From Eledone cirrhosa (taxonomy: Eukaryota): a stretch of 64,000 nt of DNA. This document shows positions 18 to 61,962 of the stretch, in pieces (the stretch's first letter is position 1; every line of letters starts with the position of its first letter). Made by a program: the position numbers and the translations under genes. The DNA lies in assembly GCA_964016885.1 (NCBI GenBank), contig OZ024750.1, positions 496,001-560,000 of the forward strand. Direction: 5' to 3'. Below the pieces are notes generated by a model. The model did no database searches. It worked only from the letters and a program-made list of their open reading frames with translations, and was not told where the DNA came from.

Positions 18-148
18 AGTTTTAATATAGATGAGATTCTACAGGACTAGAACTGTTTCATTCATTAGAAATCATCAGGAAGATTCCTGATGATTTCTAA
101 TGAATGAAAACAGTTCTAGTCCTGTAGAATCTCATCTATATTAAAACT
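18..148. mobile_element. Palindromic non-autonomous element (Penelope-like pLTR fragment) abutting (TA)n
   Basis: Arms of about 63 bp (18-80 / 85-148) are reverse complements apart from one indel. The element carries an HHR motif and runs into (TA)n at 149. Confidence 0.6.
81..132 (+). ncRNA. Type I hammerhead ribozyme-like motif
   Basis: Stem I agattc/gaatct; core CTGATGA (87-93); stem II ttc-taat-gaa with U.U closure; GAAA(A); stem III cag-ttctagtc-ctg; GTA triplet. The minus-strand mirror copy has an exact GAAA but a shorter stem I. Confidence 0.55.
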
Positions 149-3040: not shown

Positions 3041-3769
3041 TATATATATATATATATAAAATATATATATATATATATAAAATATAAAATATATATATAT
3101 ATGTATATACATAAAATATATATATATAAAATATACAATATATATATATATATGTATATATATAAAATATAAAATATATATATGTATATATATAAAATAT
3201 AAAATATATATATATATATATGTATATATATAAAATATATATATATATATATAAAATATATATATATATATATATAAAATATATATATATATATATATAA
3301 AATATATATATATATATATATAAAATATATATATATATAAAATATATATATATATAAAATATATATATATATATATAAAATATATATATATATATATAAA
3401 ATATATATATATATAAAATATATATATATATATATAATATATATATATATATAGAAATATATATATAAAATATATATTTATAAAATATATATATATATAT
3501 ATAAAATATATAAAATATATATATATATATATAATATATATATATATATATAAAATATATATAAAATATATATAAAATATATATATATATATAATATATA
3601 TATATATATAAAATATATATATAAAATATATATATATATAAAATATATATATATATAAAATATATATATATATATATATAAAATATATATATATATATAA
3701 ATATAAAATATATATATATAATATATACGATATTAAAACAAATGGAAACTATATTTATAAAACCATATT

Positions 3770-3835
3770 TATTTTGTTATATATATTTCTGGGATATCAT
3801 ATTAAAAATATGTTATGCCTTCCTCAGACAAAATA
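3770..3835 (-). ncRNA. Type I hammerhead ribozyme (mirror copy)
   Basis: Reverse complement of 3971-4036, with a fully Watson-Crick stem I tattttgt/acaaaata. Confidence 0.65.
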
Positions 3836-3970
3836 CAATACATAAGCTGTTTTATAAATAATTAGTGACATACCTTGTAATAATGCAACTTCCTTTTAAA
3901 AAGTTGATAAAAGGAAGTTGCATTATTACAAGGTATGTCACTAATTATTTATAAAACAGCTTATGTATTG

Positions 3971-4036
3971 TATTTTGTCTGAGGAAGGCATAACATATTT
4001 TTAATATGATATCCCAGAAATATATATAACGAAATA
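3971..4036 (+). ncRNA. Type I hammerhead ribozyme (minimal palindromic stem III)
   Basis: Stem I tattttgt/acgaaata; CTGAGGA 3979-3985; stem II 3986-4016 (11 bp with mismatches, A.A closure); GAAA 4017-4020; tatata; TA. Confidence 0.65.
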
Positions 4037-4255
4037 AATATGGTTTTATAAATATAGTTTCCATTTGTTTTAATATCGTAAACCTACTCCAGAAACTGTT
4101 GAGTGCTTTTATATCAGTTATAAAATATTTACTCGTTGTAACCCAACAATCTTAAATAAAACTTTTGCATATATATAATATATATATATATAATATATAT
4201 ATATAATATAATATATAATATATATATATAATATAATATATAATATATATATATA

Positions 4256-4286
<31 letters not shown>

Positions 4287-4295
4287 ATATATAAT

Positions 4296-4338
<43 letters not shown>

Positions 4339-4456
4339 TATATATATATATATATAAAATATATATATATATATATATATAAAATATATATATATATATA
4401 TATATAAAATATATATATATATATATATATAAAATATATATATATATATATATAAA

Positions 4457-4488
<32 letters not shown>

Positions 4489-4506
4489 TATATATATATA
4501 TATAAA

Positions 4507-4565
<59 letters not shown>

Positions 4566-4707
4566 TATATATATATATATAAAATATATATATATATATA
4601 TATATAAAATATATTAAAATATATATATATAAAATATATATATATATATATATATAAAATATATATATATATATATATATAAAATATATTAAAATATATA
4701 TATATAT

Positions 4708-4754
<47 letters not shown>

Positions 4755-4781
4755 TATATAAAATATATATATATATATAAA

Positions 4782-4813
<32 letters not shown>

Positions 4814-4828
4814 TATATATATATATAT

Positions 4829-4869
<41 letters not shown>

Positions 4870-5424
4870 TATATATATATAAAATATATATATATATAAA
4901 ATATATATATATATATATAAAATATATATCTCTTTTACTCTTTTACCTGTTTCAGCCATCCGGCTGAATATATATAAAAAAAATATATATATATATAAAA
5001 AATATATATATATAAAATATATATACATTTATAAAATATATATATATATATATAAAATATATATAAAATATATATACATTTATAAAATATATATATATAT
5101 ATAAAATATATATATATATAAAATATATATACATTTATAAAATATATATACATTTATAAAATATATATACATTTATAAAATATATATATATATATAAAAT
5201 ATATATATATATATATAAAATATATATATATATATAAAATATATATATATATATATAAAATATATATATATATATAAAATATATATATATATATAAAATA
5301 TATATATATATATAAAATATATATATATATATAAAATATATATATATATAAAATATATATATATATATAAAATATATATATATATAAAATATATATATAT
5401 ATAAAATATATATATATATATAAA

Positions 5425-5483
<59 letters not shown>

Positions 5484-5486
5484 TAT

Positions 5487-5517
<31 letters not shown>

Positions 5518-5525
5518 AAATATAT

Positions 5526-5557
<32 letters not shown>

Positions 5558-5584
5558 AAATATATATATATATATAATATATAT

Positions 5585-5616
<32 letters not shown>

Positions 5617-5663
5617 ATATATATATATATATAATATATATAATATATATATATATATAAAAA

Positions 5664-5695
<32 letters not shown>

Positions 5696-5944
5696 TATAT
5701 AAAATATATATATATATATATAAAATATATATATATATATAAAATATATATACATTTATAAAATATATATATATAAAATATATATATATATATAAAATAT
5801 ATATATATATAATATATATATATATATAAAATATATATATATATAAAATATATATATATATATAAAATATATATATATATATAAAATATATATATAGTAA
5901 ATATATATATATAAAATATATATATATATATAAAATATATATAG

Positions 5945-6865
5945 ATATATATAGATATACTTATATATATATATATATATACTTATATATATCATAAAAC
6001 ATGTCTATAGAATCACAAGATAAAATATATACTATTTCCTCTCCCAATTAGCATAATTAACTATATAAAAAATCGAATAGACCAGGCTATATGAATGAGG
6101 CTTCTATGAAGGAATCTCCGACAAATAACCAAAACTAGCGCCTCGCGTCGGCCATAGCGGAATATTTATCGAATATTTCGACAGCGTAATCGCCCAGATA
6201 TAGTCAACTAAACAGAATTAGGTTTAAAATAAACCAGGAGAAAATAGAATACATTTAAATACCTCTACCATGGTTTCGTCCGTGTTTTGAGATACAAATT
6301 TGGCTGTATTGTGCTGTGCTTTCTAGCAAAAATGCCACCAGTCGTAAGCAACTACCACACCCCTTCCAACTTGACCGTGACTACGTCACGATTTTTAGCC
6401 ATTTTGAAATGAATTCTCGGCGCGATCGCTTTGGAAAATTTAATGTCTAGATATGAGCGAGCTTCCTGAAGAATCCGGCGCTCGAGTTTATATAATTATT
6501 ACATAATTATTGGAAAACTCAAAACACGGACGAAACCATGGTAGAGGTATTTAAATGTATTCTATTTTCTCCTGGTTTATTTTAAACCTAATTCTGTTTA
6601 GTTGACTATATCTGGGCGATTACGCTGTCGAAATATTCGATAAATATTCCGCTATGGCCGACGCGAGGCGCTAGTTTTGGTTATTTGTCGGAGATTCCTT
6701 CATAGAAGCCTCATTCGTATAGCCTGGTCTATTCGATTTTTTATATAGTTAATTATGCTAATTGGGAGAGGAAATAGTATATATTTTATCTTGTGATTCT
6801 ATAGACATGTTTTATGATATATATAAGTATATACATATATATATATAAGTATATCTATATATATA
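5945..6865. mobile_element. Long inverted-repeat element (Penelope-like inverted pLTR) in (TA)n
   Basis: Arms 5979-6291 and 6518-6830 differ at about one position and the symmetry continues into the microsatellite. Spacer is 226 bp, with an HHR at the spacer/arm junction. Confidence 0.75.
6461..6548 (+). ncRNA. Type I hammerhead ribozyme with extended stem II
   Basis: Stem I gcttc/gaggt; CTGAAGA 6466-6472; stem II tccg/cgga extended by gagttt/aaactc and ataattat/ataattat; GAAA 6532-6535; palindromic ccatgg; GTA triplet. Confidence 0.7.
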
Positions 6866-6962
6866 TAAGTATATCTATATATATAAGTATATATATATAT
6901 AACTATATAAGTATATATATATATAACTATATAAGTATATATATATATATATATACATGTGT

Positions 6963-6998
<36 letters not shown>

Positions 6999-51533: not shown

Positions 51534-52648
51534 TGTGTAAATATTCTTCTGGGTGTGTGTGTGTTCAGCAACTGAGAAATATTAATTTTCAATAATTATC
51601 AGATAATCAAAATAGTGTTACAGAGTTATCGGCCTTGAGCTTAATGAGCAGGTAAAATGACATTTTCTGGATTGTATAAGGAATAGTTTCAAAGTGTCAC
51701 GATGATGATGGTGGTGGTGGTTATGATGATGATGTATATGATACCATATTTTTAATAAATTATTTTGGTTAATAAAAGAAAATAGCGATATGTATTAATA
51801 AAGAACTAAAATTTCCAATTTGTTTTGTTTAGTTTTTTTTTTTAATCCTGAAATGGGCAAAACTTTTTTTCCACTAGTTATTTGTAGAATACTCCAAATC
51901 TTGGAACCCTGTTTGGAACCCATTTTGTTACTCTAAGAAATGGCTATTTGTAAATCGTAGAGACTTAAAACGAATTCCAGGAGTTTATTTTTAAAAAAAG
52001 AAATTTTTTTCATCTAAGAACTGAACCTTATATAGATGAAACCTTATATAGATAAAACATGTTTTTCTTTGTTTTTTTTTGGTAACTCAACCAATAGTGT
52101 AAAAGACAACAGGTGATTGAACAGGTATTAGAAGACCAGAAACAATTCTAGATGTCAAAACAGAAAGAACATAAAAGATTGAAGAAAACAAGGAGATGCA
52201 CTGAAAATTTAAGAACGGTCAATAATTGATTTAAAGAACTGATATTATTAGTTGTAATATATTTATCTCGCACAAAACTAATGAAGAAATCCTAAGATTA
52301 TGGCTGAAAACAAAAAATATGGATTACAATATAATTCTAAAATTGTATACGTAATTTTATCCTAAAAGGTATGTGCAGATAATATATATGAAGAGTTAAT
52401 ATATTTATATAAGACTTTCATAGAAAATATGCAAACTATAATTTATCCATTATGGGTGGAACATATTTTGGGAATAATGCAAAATATTTACTGAATATAG
52501 CATTGGGTCTTTTAAGACTTTGAAACAAGACAGAATATGTTTTAAATTGAAAGAGAAATGTTTTGCTAAAAATATCATAGGAATGTAGAAATATTGTAAA
52601 AGTTCGATTTTATGAGTGAAATACAATATTAATAAGTTAAATTCTTAC

Positions 52649-53840
52649 CATATATATTCCTGTCCACATCTTTGCTTTCATTTACAGGTATATTTCGTCC
52701 AGAATTCCATTTGGACGATGAGTAACGATTTGTATTCTGAGATTCTACAGTAGCTGAGGGTACCTGTTTCATGCGCTGTTTTTGCCATATTTTTAATTCG
52801 TTGAGAATATTGGTTTTGCTTTGGTCTCTTGGTGGCACTTGGGGTGGAGACAAAGAACGTTGGTGTGCATTAGATGCAGGTGTCGGTAAAGATGCCCGAT
52901 CAAGTACAAAAGGCTCTTGTGCTTCAATATTATATTGAAGGTATGTATGGCTCACCTGTCGTGATTGAAGGGGTGGCCTATCGGTAGATCTTGTAAGACA
53001 AGGTAAATGTTGGTTGTTAGAATATTTATCATTAGATACAGAATTGTTTCCTAATCCAGTTCCAACAGAATGAAGGTTGTTATGGTGTCGGCCAGTATCA
53101 TGGTTACTATTAACCGGGATATTGTAATGTGTATTGTTTGGATTGTAATGACTAACTGATGAGTGATGTGCATGACCACCGTTATGGGCAGAAATATTGC
53201 TAGTAGCACTTGCCACACTGTTCTGATGGCCTAACGTAGTGTGCTGACTGCCATGTCGGCCAGTTACGGTCGCTATACCAGTTGCTGGAGTTAAGCTGCT
53301 GTTTAAGACATCCGCCGTAGTGTTGTTGAGATGCCGATTGAAAAACTGACCATTTGTGTTTGGCGAAGGATTTGCTGTACGGCCGTACGGTTCTTGTGAC
53401 CCAGTGAAGTTGATAGGTTTTTCATCAATATAATGGTTTGATTTGTTTTCCTTACCCAAGAAAACCTCATCCTGATCTAATTGCTCAACATCAGAGCTGT
53501 TATGAGAATCATTTATTCTATTTCGCCACAGAACAAGTTTAAGACCGGCTACAAATCTATCAAAATTCAAATAACCGTTCGGAGGTGTGACATTTCTGAG
53601 AGCATCTACAACACCAGGCGGAAGGCCTTTAACACCGTCTTCCTTCCATCGGCTTTCGATATCCAATAATCGAACATAACCACTGTGGTTCTCATCAAGA
53701 ATATCGAAAAGAATTCTCAAAGAAGACACAAACTGTTTGGGAAGATCATCAGTGGTGTTACTATTTTTAAGGCTACATAAAGAAGTATTGCTGTTAATCG
53801 ATTGTTGTTGTTGTTGGTAAGAAGTGAGGATATGAGACAT
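52649..53840 (-). CDS. SAPCD2: SAPCD2-like exon 1 (397 aa + 1 nt): N-terminal EF-hand-like SAPCD2 domain and long N/H/S-rich linker
   Basis: ATG at 53840 in context aaagccATG; LPKQFVSSLRILFDILDENHSGYVRLLDIESRW...GYLNFDRFVAGLKLVL matches the SAPCD2 N-terminus; donor G|gtaaga at 52648. Confidence 0.93.
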
Positions 53841-54159
53841 GGCTTTGAAACAGCAAATACAGCTATTCAAATCAACAAACACTAACAATTAAACAAATAA
53901 TTATTTCTAACATGTAACAATGAATGAAACATAAAAAATTCATAAATCAGCCGATTTAGTCGGCAGATGATTTTAAATGAAAACGTGCGTGAGAGTTTGT
54001 TGATGTTTTCTTTTTGACGTTCCTGTACTTTCCAGATATAAATAACGAATGTAAAGAAATCATACATAAATTTACGGAAGTATTGCGAGAGAAAAAAGAA
54101 TAGGTAACTAAAAATAGAAAGGAGTAAATCAAGTTCAAAATATAACCCACGGTAGGCAT

Positions 54160-56391: not shown

Positions 56392-59300
56392 GGCGACCTA
56401 CATAGTAAATCGTATCATCGTGAGCTCCGCAAAGGTTTGTTGTTTTCGTTTGTTTAAAATTGCCATTTATGGAAAATTTTTATTGTTAACTGTATATAAG
56501 TGCACATACATTGTTTTCCGAAAAGGACACTCAAAAAGATTGGGGCCTTGAGCCCAAAATTTAAACTTTTATAATTATCAAAAAAAAACTTTCTTCGAAA
56601 AAAACATGGACTCACAGCCACATGAAGCTGACAGCCTTCCTCACAAACTAACACCTCACTCTGACACCACCATTGTAAATATTACTACGTTTGCCAACAC
56701 TAAAAATATAAGCAGTAGCAATATTTTAAATTTGTCTCAGGCAGATATTCATTTCCTGCCATTACCAATGACTGCAAGTGTAAAAGCCGCCACCACCACC
56801 ACCACCGCGACAACCACCACCCCACCACCACCGTGACAACAGAAACAAAAGAAAAAAATAAATTAACTCGTGATATTGAAATGAATTCAACCAAAATGAA
56901 CTCTTCCACACCGAACTCTACTGACGCCACCACCACCACAACTGAAACTAAAATTAATAATAACAAAAATAACGATAACAACAACAGCAACAATGAAATT
57001 AAGAAAACCACCCTGAGTTTTGCCAGAGTAGCAAAACAGTGCGAAGCATTTCAGGTAACTCAGGAGGAATTAGAAGAAGCCAAAAAAATGGTAAAGAAAG
57101 ATGGGTACAGGGTCAGCCCCCCCCCCCCACCTAATAAAATGGAGCATCGGCGCCTATGCACCGTGTCTTATCAAACAATTAATATAAAATCGCGCCGAGT
57201 GGAACGGGCATCCGAGTCCCAAATCCAAAAAGCTTTGGGACATGTGTGGGCAAAAAAAACCTACATCAGATGTGGGCAGAAATATGGAACCGTGGACATG
57301 TTCTTTGAAACACCACAGGAGGCTAGAGAACACTCTATGGCCTCATTAAGAAGTGACGACTTCACACTAGTCCCAAGCTATTGTGGCCAGAGACTCGTAA
57401 AGATCAGGGTCACCCATGTTCCACCGGCCATCGAAATTCCCTGGCTAATAGCTGCCGTCCTCGCCGGCATCGAAGCCAACACCAAGATAATCGAATAATC
57501 GAAATAGCGAAAGAAAAGCAGGAGAACTGGTCCGGATCTGGGATGGAGCTCCTGTTCCAAGTGGACCAAAAAAGCATTGAGGAGATCCCAGAGGTAATAG
57601 GCCTCACTGACGGCAGCCACCTCACCGTAATTGTCGAGGGCAGAAGGCCTAGGTGTGTCGTTTGTGGTGAAGGAACCCACTTAAGGGCTTTCTGCCCTCA
57701 GGCTAAAAGGTTGAGGCCACCTCTCCTACCCACCCCAGTGACTCAACCATCAACACCACCAGCAGCAGAGATGGCAGCAACAACTGTAGCAGCAACAACA
57801 GAAGCAACTGTAACAGCAACAACCCCAGCAACAGTAGCAAAACCAACACCACCACCACCCAACGCGCCAGAACTAGCACCAGCGCCTACACCATCCACCA
57901 CGCCACAACCAAAACTAATGCCTGTGGAGGATTTTCCACTCCCCGGCCTATCACAACTGGAGACAGATTGTGACGACGAGGAGTGGGAAACGGTATCAGG
58001 AAAAAAGAAAAAAAGAAACCAAAAAAGAAAAAATTCTCTTCCTTCCCCCTCCAAAAACAAAATACAGAGGGAAACAAATAAACTATCAAACAAAAAAGTT
58101 AGGACAGATATGCCACCATCCACACCAGCATCACCAACCCCATCACCCAAAACACCAACACCATCACCATCATTAACCCCAACACCACCATCACCTACAC
58201 CACAAAAGTCACCAAAAAGCGAAACAGAAACAAACCCACAACGAACACAAACAAAACAAAACAACCAAAACGATACACACTACACAGCATTAAATTTGAA
58301 CAACAACCAATTATTACACTACATCCAACACAACACCAGCATCACAGAAAAAGACTACACAACAACCCAAAAGTTCACACCACCTCCACTCAGAATAGGC
58401 AGCATAAATGCACGTGGCTTGGGGTCGTCATGGAAGCAGGGCCACCTGCTCAATGACCTCAGGTCACTAAACATAGATGTAGTGGCCATCAGCGAGACCA
58501 GAATCTCCGAAGCACGGGCCTTCGCACCGATCTTCAGCGGCTACGATGTGGGAGTTGCTGTGCTTTTTCGGAGAGGTTTGGATCTCGCCATACGGGCCAT
58601 CTTCCTGGACCCAGAAGATAAGTTGGTGGTACTGGACATGACCAGCGGAGACGGACAAGCTTTCAGGCTAGTGGCCGTCTATGCCCCGACAGGAGCAGGG
58701 CGCCCTTTTTTCTTCCGGCGTCTGGAGACCTTTCTTGGAACGTCCCGCTCTTTAGTGTTAGTGGGCGACTGGAACGGGATCTTAGATGCACGCTGGGACT
58801 GTGTGGGATTAGCGGATAGGGGAGGAGGGTGCAAGAGTCTCACCAACCTGCTCAGGCGTTTTGAACTGTCTGACAGTTACCGATTGGATTTCCCGAATGT
58901 GACAATGTGGACTTGGACAAATCGCATAGGGTCATCCAGATCATATCTAGATAGAGTATTTTGTAGGGAAATAGATAGGTCTAGCATAGGCTGTCCACAA
59001 TTCAAGATAGTCAGCTACATGGACCACAAATTCGTGATCTGTGTGCTTGACTTAGATAGGCTTCATAGACGAGGACCCGGCTACTGGAAGCTAAACACGT
59101 CCTTACCAGCGCGCAAGGCCTACAGAGACCGGATTAGCAAACTAGTTAAGTGGGCGTTGACGGGGGTCATCGTTAACAACAAGTGGTGGTTTACTCTGAA
59201 AAGAGCAATTAGAATAGAGTCCATTAGGTTTAGTAAGGCTTTAGCAATAGAGAAAAATAGAGCAGAGGGAGAATTAGTTAGAAAATTAGACGAGGCGCTT

Positions 59301-61962
59301 AGCAAAGGCATCGCGACCGACGTACTTGCGGCGAAATTGGCCCTTGACCAATTCTTCAATGCAAAGCACGAAGGCTGCGTTGTCAAAGCTAGGGTGCGTG
59401 CTCTCAGACACGAGGGGACGAAAGCCGTTCAATGGGCCCGAGTGGAGGAGGTGCCTCGTGGCAACAAAGCCACGATCCGGTCTTTGGTGGACCACGATGG
59501 CCGCATGCTATTAGATCCCGGGCAAATGTGTGAAGCTTTCCAGCGACACTTCGCCCAGCTGTTCGGGGGCAGCGGCGGGCCGAATCGAGGGATGGACTTT
59601 AGTGTCTACCTCGACGGACTGCCACGGCTCTCGGCCACTGAGGCGAAGTGTTACGAAAAGCCGATAACAGCCGCTGAAGTACGGGAGGCAATGACTGGCT
59701 GCACAAGGGGTAAATCGCCTGGTTTGGATGGTCTGCCCTATGAACTTTACGTACAAATGCCAGACTTGTTCGGAGGCCTCTTGGCGGACGTCTACTGCAA
59801 CTGGCAACAGAATGGGAGAATTCCCAGCTCTGTGAGCCGAGGAGCGGTGGTGCTGCTGAGAAAGGATCCGAACAAGGGGGATAACATAGATAATTTCAGG
59901 CCCATAACTCTGCTAAACACAGAGTTCAAGATTTTGGCCAAGGTGCTAGCAAAGAGGTTGGCGCTTGTCGTTGGTGGTCTGGTGGGAGAGGCGCAGACAT
60001 GCGCCATTCCCGACAGATCCATCCACGACAACCTCCACCTCATGCGATACATCGTAGAGAGGGTAGCTAGGGAACCTGGCACGGGTGGGTCCTTGATCAA
60101 TTTAGATCAGTCGAAAGCTTTCGATAGGGTCGACCATCGTTACCTAGCGGCAGTCCTGAGGGCGACTGGCTTTGGGCCCGTCTTCAGAGGCTGGATCGCT
60201 GCCATGCACAGCGACATCTGCTCTGTGGTGAGAGTGAACGATCACCTTTCGGAACCATTCAACATCATGCGCTCGGTCCGCCAAGGATGTACCCTCTCGT
60301 TCCTCTTGTACGTATTGACTCTCGAGCCATTACTGCACAAACTGGAGACGTTGAGGGGCATCCCACGCGAACTAGGATGCGGAAGATCCGTGTCAGCATA
60401 TGCGGACGATGTCACCGTAGTGGTGTCGAACGCCAAACACATCGAGGCGATCGGCACTACACTAAGAGAATACGAAGCGGTGACAGGAGCAATGATCAAC
60501 CAGGAAAAATCAGTGGGCCTGCAGCTCGGCACCTGGAGAGGCAAGTCCATGCCGTTCAACAGCATCGTCGGGTGCTGGACAGACAGACCGGTTAAATTGC
60601 TAGGGGTCTGGTTCGGTCCGGACCTCCAGACGGACAAAAACTGGGACAAGGTGACAAGCAGGGTGGCTTCTCTCACCCAGAAATGGGCGGAGAGGAAGCT
60701 ATCCCTGAAAGGTCGAGCGGAGGTGGCTAACGCGTACATCGCGTCCGTCATCTACTACCGCCTGACCGTCGTACCTTGTCCTAAGCCCCGCCTGACTGAG
60801 CTGGAGCGTTTGCTCTTTCGCTTTTTGTGGAAGGGACGCGCTCCGATGGTCAGGCGGTCCATCTGCTGTCAACACCCGCTCAGGCTACGACATCTCCACC
60901 TCTTCCTCGACGGTGATCAGGTGTGGTCACCGTTTGCTAGACACGTCTTTCCCCAGCTCGTCTCCTTGATGGAGCTGCAGTCCTGGGTCAAGCGAAGACC
61001 GAGAGGGAGCGCTTGGAGACTGGAATGTCTTCAGGCGCTCACAGCCCTCGACCAATCGGGCAATGTGATCGGTGGAAACTCCACCTTGGCGTTCTATAGA
61101 GGATTAGTGGAGGGGAAGAGCGACGACGTACTTGGAGAAACTCTAGGCGTCGACGAAAATCAACTAGCCAATCTCTTCGGACGGACTTTCGGGCCGGGGC
61201 CTATGGACAACTTCCAGAAATCCCTGGCCTGGCAGTGCTACCGGGGAGCTTTGCCAGTTCGGGATAAACTCTACAGGCATGGAGGTGCCGTCAGCCGGGC
61301 ATGTCCGAGATGTGCGCAGGGCGACGAAACCGTCCTGCACGCACTCGTCCAGTGTCCGAGCATTGCTGACTTGTGGGTTTATGTCGAACACCTGCTGTCA
61401 CGTGTAGGACGGATCCAGCTATCAGCTGAGTCCATCGTGAGGATTGCTCCGCCCTCTTCCTTTAGCCGGGAAGGGCAGGCAGTTTTTATCTATCTGGTGG
61501 CCATGGCAAAAGAGATAGTATGGTGGACACGTTTGAAAGGGCTGAAGATGAGCACTTACCTCTTCGGTGATGCCCTGATTAACTTTTTCAAATTTCATTT
61601 GAAAAGGAAAATCAGGGTAGAGAGGGAAGTGCCCTCTTCCCAGCATTTTGTTGAAAGATGGGTGAGAGAAGCAAGTATGGCCCGAGTGAATGGGCCTACT
61701 CTGAGTATGTGTCTGTAAATTAAAGGTGGAAAACTGGGAGAGGGCACTTGCCCTGGTGGTCAGGGTCACTGTGGTCTTTTAATGGGCTTTCTCCACAAAT
61801 GTCCCTCGGAAGTCTCCCCCCTATTGGGGAATTTTTCTTTGTTATTTTATTACATCCTCTGTTTTTTTTTACACGCAGAAATGCCCATTTGTACCATCCT
61901 GTATTGTCCTGTACTGTCCTTAATGTCTACTTTATGTAAACCCTTGTGGTTACTAAAGAAAA

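What the first reader, a model, noticed from the sequence alone, without database searches (positions are those of the whole stretch)
5945..6865. Inverted-arm element: HHR with large stem II insertion, and arms that include flanking microsatellite
It looks like a foldback DNA transposon (313-bp arms), but an HHR straddles the spacer/right-arm junction. The left arm is an inverted copy starting inside the HHR stem II. The symmetry extends about 35-50 nt into the interrupted (TA)n flank, which fits copying of a read-through 3' flank by a PLE-like retro-mechanism better than TIR cut-and-paste. The spacer is CpG-rich and contains a small palindrome cgtgac-tac-gtcacg, possibly a promoter.
Basis: partly seen in the sequence, partly recalled or inferred. 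Interest (0 to 1): 0.75.

Follow-up and report, generated by a model that had tools for sequence, protein, structure and literature searches.

The report
Penelope-footprint retrozyme with snapped-back arm
This is one copy of an abundant, protein-free 659-base repeat that carries a predicted self-cutting RNA motif and was likely pasted into TA-repeat DNA by a Penelope-type jumping-gene enzyme; its mirror-image left arm was probably copied from the newly made DNA itself rather than from a read-through RNA, and the whole is a new member of a known kind.

Summary
The inverted repeat (347 nt clean mirror, 226-nt spacer), the type I hammerhead and the 41-nt mirrored TA flank are real. The right part is a 5'-truncated copy of a 659-nt non-coding unit. 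Its hammerhead pattern occurs 2,199 times genome-wide (control 0). In 104 insertions of this subfamily, 5' ends and inversion points vary, while 3' ends sit at two fixed sites 107 nt apart. Of 31 inverted copies with canonical ends, 29 have the 'tail' on one arm only: the published Penelope footprint, not a DNA transposon. Pieces within one insertion share one haplotype and read through the cleavage site, as expected for a circular or uncut multimer template. This copy is the exception: both arms end at the same site, and it alone (1 of 42) mirrors its flank. No donor with that flank is in the assembly, so cDNA snap-back at a 5-nt microhomology fits better than 3' read-through. The hammerhead has a long stem II and a covarying pseudoknot. 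No autonomous partner was found by sequence; cleavage and expression are untested. The scan reported the same footprint for other families in this genome.

The parts
5945..5985 (-). Inverted copy of the first 41 nt of the right-hand interrupted TA flank (one mismatch, 5975); loose match continues to 5935
   Evidence: unique to this locus in the assembly
5986..6291 (-). Left arm: inverted copy of monomer positions 355-659, lacking the 5' half of the hammerhead; ends at the tail-less site 'a'
   Evidence: shares the right copy's three private A>G changes; 1 difference in 293 nt
6287..6291 (.). 5-nt microhomology TTGAG at the inversion junction; complementary to CTCAA 6518-6522
   Evidence: the only TTGAG on the cDNA strand of 6287-6820
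6287..6823 (+). Main copy: 5'-truncated monomer, positions 124-659 of the 659-nt unit, non-coding
   Evidence: longest stop-free frame in the circular monomer is 48 aa
6376..6390 (.).
   Evidence: 3 of 71 copies
6454..6548 (+). Predicted type I hammerhead: pseudoknot leader 6454-6459, stem I 6461-6465 with 6544-6548, core CTGAAGA 6466-6472, A.C mismatch at 10.1-11.1 (6473/6531), stem II 6474-6477 with 6527-6530, pseudoknot strand 6479-6484, extension hairpin 6485-6520, GAAA 6532-6535, palindromic stem III, predicted cleavage after 6543
6794..6823 (+). Reverse-transcription start site 'a' (inferred); best conserved block across subfamilies besides the ribozyme core
   Evidence: m631-658 at least 90% conserved in 11 units of 67-96% identity; 2,457 exact matches, control 0
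6824..6997 (.). Interrupted (TA)n tract with AAG/AAC interruptions; inferred target DNA
   Evidence: these motifs occur only here and in the mirrored piece within window plus 9.9 kb upstream
4165..5944 (.). Left TA array with AAAA-type interruptions, unlike the mirrored piece

Best explanation
The element is a 5'-truncated copy of a 659-nt protein-free hammerhead repeat (a non-LTR retrozyme) that was likely inserted into a TA tract by a Penelope-like reverse transcriptase/GIY-YIG endonuclease acting in trans, and its inverted left arm was probably made by snap-back of the new cDNA. Steps: (1) tandem copies are transcribed (inferred); the hammerhead would cut once per unit and give monomers that circularise (inferred by analogy, untested). 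(2) The enzyme cuts (TA)n on both strands and starts reverse transcription at one of two fixed internal sites, 'a' (6823) or 'b' (107 nt further, the tail). The end pattern is shown; the enzyme is inferred. (3) Normally the two target ends start at a and b on one template haplotype and the two cDNAs join head to head (pattern shown). (4) Here the cDNA started at a and stopped at 6287. Its 3' end CTCAA likely folded back onto TTGAG 226 nt away and was extended on its own strand through the element end and 41 nt into the target flank, then annealed to the left TA array (inferred).
For: Family: 2,634 candidates; 245 exact subfamily 21-mers; 2,199 hammerhead patterns, control 0. In 104 insertions the long-arm 3' ends are a 68, b 29, other 6, off-locus 1; 43 are inverted (29 a/b, 2 a/a, 12 with a non-canonical end); 50 different 5' starts in 61 non-inverted copies; 70 long arms exceed one monomer. 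One template per insertion: minor alleles agree within a locus in 109 of 126 tandem and 49 of 63 inverted comparisons, against 15.5% between loci; 5' ends do not pile up at the cleavage site (1 of 147, 2.5 expected). A young RT+GIY-YIG element in the same genome has the same footprint: 41-nt tail, 5 a/b of 7 tail-out pairs. Published Penelope features match: inverted 5' copy, tail at one end, (TA)n bias (PMC8557442, passages); two internal RT starts and extension of both strands (PMC11167929, parts 1-2 of 4). Snap-back: same end on both arms, mirrored flank in 1 of 42, no donor, unique 5-nt microhomology, lowest arm divergence of 18 loci (0.3%). L014 has a 49-nt exact inverted copy of its own flank at the 5' junction while other copies of that sequence are 91-100% alike over 21-34 nt. 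In L283 a Penelope arm with the same end on both sides runs about 95 nt past its own end into the neighbour.
Against: No autonomous element shares this unit by sequence. In 50 GIY-YIG loci the two strong hits were separate insertions beside a PLE; for L115, 0 of 29 other copies of that PLE had the unit joined to their 3' end. No family locus showed an ORF continuous with the unit. Position 10.1-11.1 is A.C in this subfamily (A in 104 of 104 loci), against G-C in 17 of 33 sister copies, and the free fold does not form the hammerhead (z -0.53; -13.4 constrained against -17.5 free), so cleavage may be slow. Shared private variants are the family norm, so they do not single out snap-back. Within-locus agreement is not complete (14 and 17 discordant comparisons). 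L017, L018 and L250, first counted as flank copies, lie in other repeats' inverted structures and are ambiguous. The sample was chosen for a hammerhead or high similarity, so short copies are under-counted.
Confidence: 0.7

Rival explanations
1. One reading: a read-through RNA from a donor copy carried the interrupted TA flank, and both target ends primed inside that flank (3' transduction with twin priming).
For: The AAG-type tract differs from the left array and is found nowhere else in the window or 9.9 kb upstream. Both arms share private changes, as one RNA would give. [quoted passage not shown]
Against: No donor in the assembly. A tail-less read-through RNA lacks the conserved tail block m2-57. 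97 of 104 long arms start at a or b. No other mirrored flank in 41 inverted loci.
Confidence: 0.13
2. Ordinary insertion followed later by a replication or repair template switch at the TTGAG/CTCAA microhomology, which duplicated the 3' half plus flank in inverted orientation. Same geometry as snap-back, but unrelated to the insertion step.
For: It explains the same-end arms, shared variants and flank copy equally well. The arms differ at only 1 of 293 positions. TA arrays are self-complementary.
Against: The right copy's 5' end coincides with the junction, with no left-over 5' part. Its three private changes are all shared and only one difference separates the arms, which leaves little time between the events. 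Flank inversion at a 5' junction is seen at L014.
Confidence: 0.12
3. The template was an uncut linear multimer from a homogeneous tandem array and the hammerhead is weak or irrelevant, so no circle is involved. This concerns steps 1-2 only and is compatible with snap-back.
For: A tandem array of about 21 units of a 72% relative exists. The A.C mismatch is fixed in this subfamily. In PAc, hammerhead mutants did not affect insertion in vitro (PMC11167929). Only 1 of 9 Xenopus dimers cleaved (10.64898/2026.07.22.740005).
Against: Core, stems and pseudoknot are conserved with compensatory changes across subfamilies of 67-96% identity. 14 of 29 tandem loci share locus-private variants between units.
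Confidence: 0.3
4. Foldback or MITE-like DNA transposon with long terminal inverted repeats.
For: Long near-perfect terminal inverted repeat at this one locus, in TA-rich DNA.
Against: 61 of 104 copies have no inverted arm; arm starts differ from copy to copy; head-to-tail tandems and 5' truncation are the rule.
Confidence: 0.02
5. The flank-inclusive mirror is an assembly or long-read chimera.
For: The arms are almost identical.
Against: Two arm mismatches, a 226-nt loop with microhomology, and 43 of 104 relatives with comparable inverted junctions.
Confidence: 0.03

Closest known systems
Metazoan non-LTR retrozymes (Cervera and de la Pena 2020, PMC7229834: passages plus sections 14 and 17 read; Li, Clavereau and Pollet 2026, 10.64898/2026.07.22.740005: parts 1-3 of 5 read, supplements closed)
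   Same: Protein-free tandem unit with one type I hammerhead, low GC, dispersed monomers, dimers and arrays, coexisting with PLEs.
   Different: 659 nt against 170-400 nt RNAs in the 2020 paper (within the 51-972 bp of the 2026 preprint). 'inverted' and 'microsatellite' do not occur in the 2020 main text. Long stem II with a pseudoknot. Circular RNA and cleavage not shown here.
Insertion unit of endonuclease-bearing Penelope-like elements (PMC8557442 and PMC3846280, passages; PMC11167929, parts 1-2 of 4)
   Same: Inverted 5'-truncated copy, partial tandems, tail on one end, (TA)n targets, microhomology at 5' junctions, hammerhead with short palindromic stem III.
   Different: No RT/GIY-YIG ORF and no partner found by sequence. 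Tail 107 nt against 30-40 nt. This copy has no tail on either arm and mirrors target DNA.
Pseudoknot-stabilised hammerheads (Perreault et al. 2011, PMC3088659, passages)
   Same: Base-paired contact between the stem I side and stem II, predicted for about 40% of hammerheads in that study.
   Different: Here it pairs the 5' leader with an internal loop of a 47-59-nt stem II, and 10.1-11.1 varies (A.C, U-A, G-C, A-U).
L1 twin priming and cDNA self-annealing foldbacks (PMC11702581, passages)
   Same: Second priming from the other target end; hairpin by cDNA self-annealing; inverted duplications at the target.
   Different: L1 inverted pieces abut with 1-10 bp deletion or duplication; here the arms overlap by hundreds of bases and start at fixed internal sites.

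Membership tests
Non-LTR retrozyme | Type I hammerhead in each unit | tested here: met
   Core m303-309 invariant in 46 of 46 loci; stem I pairs 1-3 formed in 96, 98 and 97 of 99 distinct sequences. By sequence only.
Non-LTR retrozyme | Head-to-tail tandem repeats | tested here: met
   70 of 104 long arms exceed one monomer; dimers to an array of about 21 units.
Non-LTR retrozyme | No protein-coding capacity, GC below 50% | tested here: met
   Longest frame 48 aa; GC 0.34-0.40.
Non-LTR retrozyme | Monomer of a few hundred bases | tested here: met
   659 nt: above 150-450 bp, inside 51-972 bp.
Non-LTR retrozyme | Self-cleavage at the NUH site | not testable with these tools
   Needs an assay; A.C at 10.1-11.1 makes the rate uncertain.
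Non-LTR retrozyme | Expression as linear and circular RNA | not testable with these tools
   Only indirect: one haplotype per insertion and read-through of the cleavage site.
PLE-type insertion footprint | Two alternative 3' ends, tail on one arm only | tested here: met
   29 of 31 inverted copies with canonical ends; 44 of 58 inverted loci across subfamilies were a/b, 1 a/a, 13 unresolved. This copy itself is an exception.
PLE-type insertion footprint | Variable 5' truncation and inverted 5' copy | tested here: met
   50 distinct starts in 61 non-inverted copies; 43 of 104 inverted.
PLE-type insertion footprint | AT-rich or (TA)n target | tested here: met
   26 of 26 located ends in the first 30 loci are followed by a TA run, by tail plus TA, or by the next unit; 4 ends were not located by the motif.
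Autonomous PLE | RT plus GIY-YIG ORF | tested here: not met
   No ORF in the unit; none continuous with family copies.
pLTR derivative of an identified PLE | Sequence similarity to the pLTR of an autonomous element | tested here: inconclusive
   None in 50 of 150 scored (10,597 candidate) GIY-YIG loci beyond two separate insertions.
Foldback/MITE DNA transposon | Fixed terminal inverted repeats in all copies | tested here: not met
Foldback/MITE DNA transposon | TA target-site duplication | tested here: inconclusive
   Ends lie in TA runs, so a 2-bp duplication cannot be read.
Foldback/MITE DNA transposon | Autonomous DDE transposase partner | not tested
   No search run.

The most novel reading that the evidence does not exclude
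The family records rolling reverse transcription of one RNA circle from both ends of a double-strand cut at two fixed internal sites. A pseudoknotted hammerhead is kept but damped at 10.1-11.1 so that circles stay closed. This copy captures the fallback route, cDNA snap-back running into target DNA, by which Penelope enzymes create inverted duplications of host sequence.
Probability: 0.3. Interest if true: 0.6.

Novelty: new member of a known kind. Interest (0 to 1): 0.37.

Why it matters
That animal retrozymes are spread by Penelope enzymes is proposed in print from co-occurrence and pLTR similarity. This family adds insertion-level evidence (tail on one arm, one haplotype per insertion, read-through of the cut site) and defines the two start sites and a conserved cis block that can be assayed with a purified enzyme. 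The copy in hand shows that inverted arms have at least two likely origins, twin priming and snap-back. It is a rare variant of a known footprint rather than a new system.

Tried and rejected
Rfam scan: no hammerhead model hit, only weak miRNA hits on TA runs. Donor search: only the two arms. L115 as autonomous partner: rejected, the unit follows that PLE in 1 of 30 copies and that PLE's own inverted arm ends before it. L283 as autonomous partner: rejected, a TA run separates PLE and unit. A-to-I editing: the three private changes are A>G in TAG, TAG, AAG, but the family shows no strand bias (15 A>G against 13 T>C; 43 against 51 singletons and 11 against 7 template-borne in 104 loci); kept only as a lead. 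Editing to repair 10.1: no G at 10.1 in 104 loci. Palindrome as promoter: minority allele; no Pol III B box match. First mirrored-flank metrics counted mismatched or chance letters and were replaced. L240 (second a/a copy) and L017, L018, L250 are not clean snap-back cases. Hairpin junctions with arm start near main start are about as frequent as chance and were not used. Expression: no RNA holder listed. Contigs of runs X1-X4 did not cover the TA flank, and no listed contig of X1-X3 bridged the junction, with 150 pieces not shown; neither is evidence. Literature searches listed no paper on this family or on flank-copying arms of retrozymes; most listed papers were seen only as listings, and the bioRxiv supplements could hold related families.

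Full report
Observation. The inverted repeat is real: arms 5935-6291 and 6518-6874, 99%, 226 nt apart. The clean mirror is 347 nt (5945-6291 / 6518-6864) with two mismatches. A type I hammerhead lies at 6466-6543 with a 59-nt stem II, and the inversion point falls in the 3' strand of that stem. The mirror includes 41 nt of interrupted TA flank. CpG enrichment covers the whole element, and the small palindrome is a minority allele (3 of 71 copies).

The family. A search of the own genome (3.0 Gb, a large animal-type assembly) gave 2,634 candidates; the best ones match 6287-6815 at about 98% but not the left arm in place. Tandem copies define a 659-nt monomer, of which the window holds positions 124-659. 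It has no frame over 48 aa. The hammerhead pattern occurs 2,199 times, the exact subfamily 21-mer 245 times and the 3'-end 27-mer 2,457 times, each with control 0. Relatives at 67-96% identity share the architecture, and one forms an array of about 21 units.

Insertion grammar. I analysed 104 insertions of this subfamily: 46 best DNA hits and 58 taken in genomic order from the 100 listed of 245 pattern hits. Long-arm 3' ends are site a 68, site b 29 (107 nt further on), other 6, off-locus 1. Forty-three have an inverted left arm: 29 a/b, 2 a/a, 12 with a non-canonical end. The 61 others have 50 different 5' starts, and 70 long arms exceed one monomer. Of 22 inversion junctions listed, 18 overlap by 1-10 nt, 2 are blunt and 2 have gaps. 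This is the Penelope pattern: inverted 5' copy, partial tandems, tail at one end, (TA)n targets (PMC8557442, passages; PMC3846280, passages). The tail was traced to two internal RT start sites by an enzyme that cuts and extends both strands (PMC11167929, parts 1-2 of 4). A young RT+GIY-YIG element in this genome shows the same grammar with a 41-nt tail. A DNA transposon is excluded by the variable ends.

Template. Within a locus, minor alleles agree in 109 of 126 tandem and 49 of 63 inverted comparisons, against 15.5% between loci. 14 of 29 tandem and 4 of 18 inverted loci share locus-private variants. 5' ends are not enriched at the cleavage site (1 of 147; 2.5 expected). So one haplotype is copied repeatedly and through the ribozyme site: a circle, or an uncut multimer from a homogeneous array. 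These data cannot separate the two. The sample was chosen to contain the ribozyme, so the 102 of 104 arms that cross it overstate the share in all copies.

The ribozyme. Across 99 distinct sequences from the fetched loci, stem I pairs 1-3 hold in 96-98. A hairpin of at least 6 bp extends stem II in 93 of 95. The leader GAGY pairs with RCTC in the stem II loop: the variable pair is Watson-Crick in 87 of 92 (shuffle mean 48, maximum 63); 7 sequences could not be anchored. On an unfitted alignment of 22 sequences, 13 cells changed on both sides (0 of 500 shuffles as high), but only 2 pairs did so (451 of 500 as high). The sequences are related, so these are few independent events. Pseudoknots of this kind are common in hammerheads (PMC3088659, passages). 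Position 10.1-11.1 is A.C in this subfamily and G-C in 17 of 33 sister copies; a U.U mismatch there is known in an axolotl retrozyme that cleaves weakly as monomer. The free fold does not give the hammerhead. Activity is predicted, not shown.

Why this copy mirrors its flank. Both arms end at site a, and it is the only one of 42 inverted loci with a mirrored interrupted flank. The junction plus flank occurs only at these two arms in the assembly. The cDNA 3' end (CTCAA) has one complementary site on its own strand, exactly at the breakpoint. Folding back there and extending would copy 6523-6823, run through the primer junction into target DNA and end in TA repeats that can anneal to the left array. 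That gives the same end, the shared variants, the low divergence (1 of 293) and the flank, with no donor needed. L014 carries an exact 49-nt inverted copy of its own flank at the 5' junction. In L283 a Penelope arm with the same end on both sides runs about 95 nt into its neighbour. Three other apparent cases are ambiguous. Read-through transduction remains possible if the donor is missing from the assembly, and a later template switch would look alike.

Partner. No autonomous element with this sequence was found among 50 GIY-YIG loci (of 150 scored, 10,597 candidates) or next to family copies. Mobilisation by a PLE is inferred from the footprint only.

Comparison and verdict. It works like a non-autonomous PLE and meets the sequence-level features of a non-LTR retrozyme (PMC7229834; 10.64898/2026.07.22.740005); cleavage and circles are untested. 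Earlier notes of this scan report the same footprint for other hammerhead families in this genome and a snap-back patch in another genome; none matched this sequence. These notes are unchecked and were seen after my reading was set. New member of a known kind; interest 0.37.

Noticed in passing
window 75-146: A second, unrelated hammerhead-like motif (CTGATGA at 87, short stem II), close to motifs seen in L070, L074 and L078; it has an extra A in the GAAA stretch.
   Followed up: no
window 3726-3898 / 3908-4080: 173-nt, 99% inverted repeat with a 9-nt loop inside the TA array; similar sequence flanks L015, L104 and L126, so probably another retro-insertion with an inverted arm.
   Followed up: no
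window 57357-61718 (+): Open 1,453-aa frame with endonuclease, RT and zf-RVT matches: a LINE-type element.
   Followed up: no
window 52629-53888 (-): 419-aa open frame with a SAPC2_N match, E 1.4e-37.
   Followed up: no
window 6574, 6614, 6667: The three private changes of this copy are all A>G in TAG/TAG/AAG context and present in both arms; they resemble A-to-I editing of the template (context preference recalled), but the family shows no such bias.
   Followed up: partly
window 6402-6424: TTTGAA...GGCGCG motif kept in 8 of 11 diverse units; related short motifs and CCAAT boxes occur in the most distant subfamily and in the L115 PLE end. Resemblance to cell-cycle promoter elements is recalled and untested.
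   Followed up: partly
L297:5117-9901 and L298:1-9900: Array of about 21 head-to-tail units of a 72% relative, preceded by an inverted tailed arm; it runs off the fetched region.
   Followed up: no
L115:2310-6774; L119-L148: Young RT+GIY-YIG Penelope-like family (2,187 candidates) with a 41-nt tail and TA targets; the copy in L115 is broken.
   Followed up: partly
L115:6774, L283, L321: Three cases of that PLE's 3' end followed, across a TA run, by a retrozyme copy in the same orientation; enrichment over chance not shown.
   Followed up: partly
L066:1988-6720: 844-aa PLE-like ORF followed by two hammerheads 459 nt apart with long stem II and U.U at its base.
   Followed up: no
L267:1925-2211: Inverted arm ending at monomer position 384, four bases past the predicted cleavage site, in non-TA flank; single case.
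   Followed up: no
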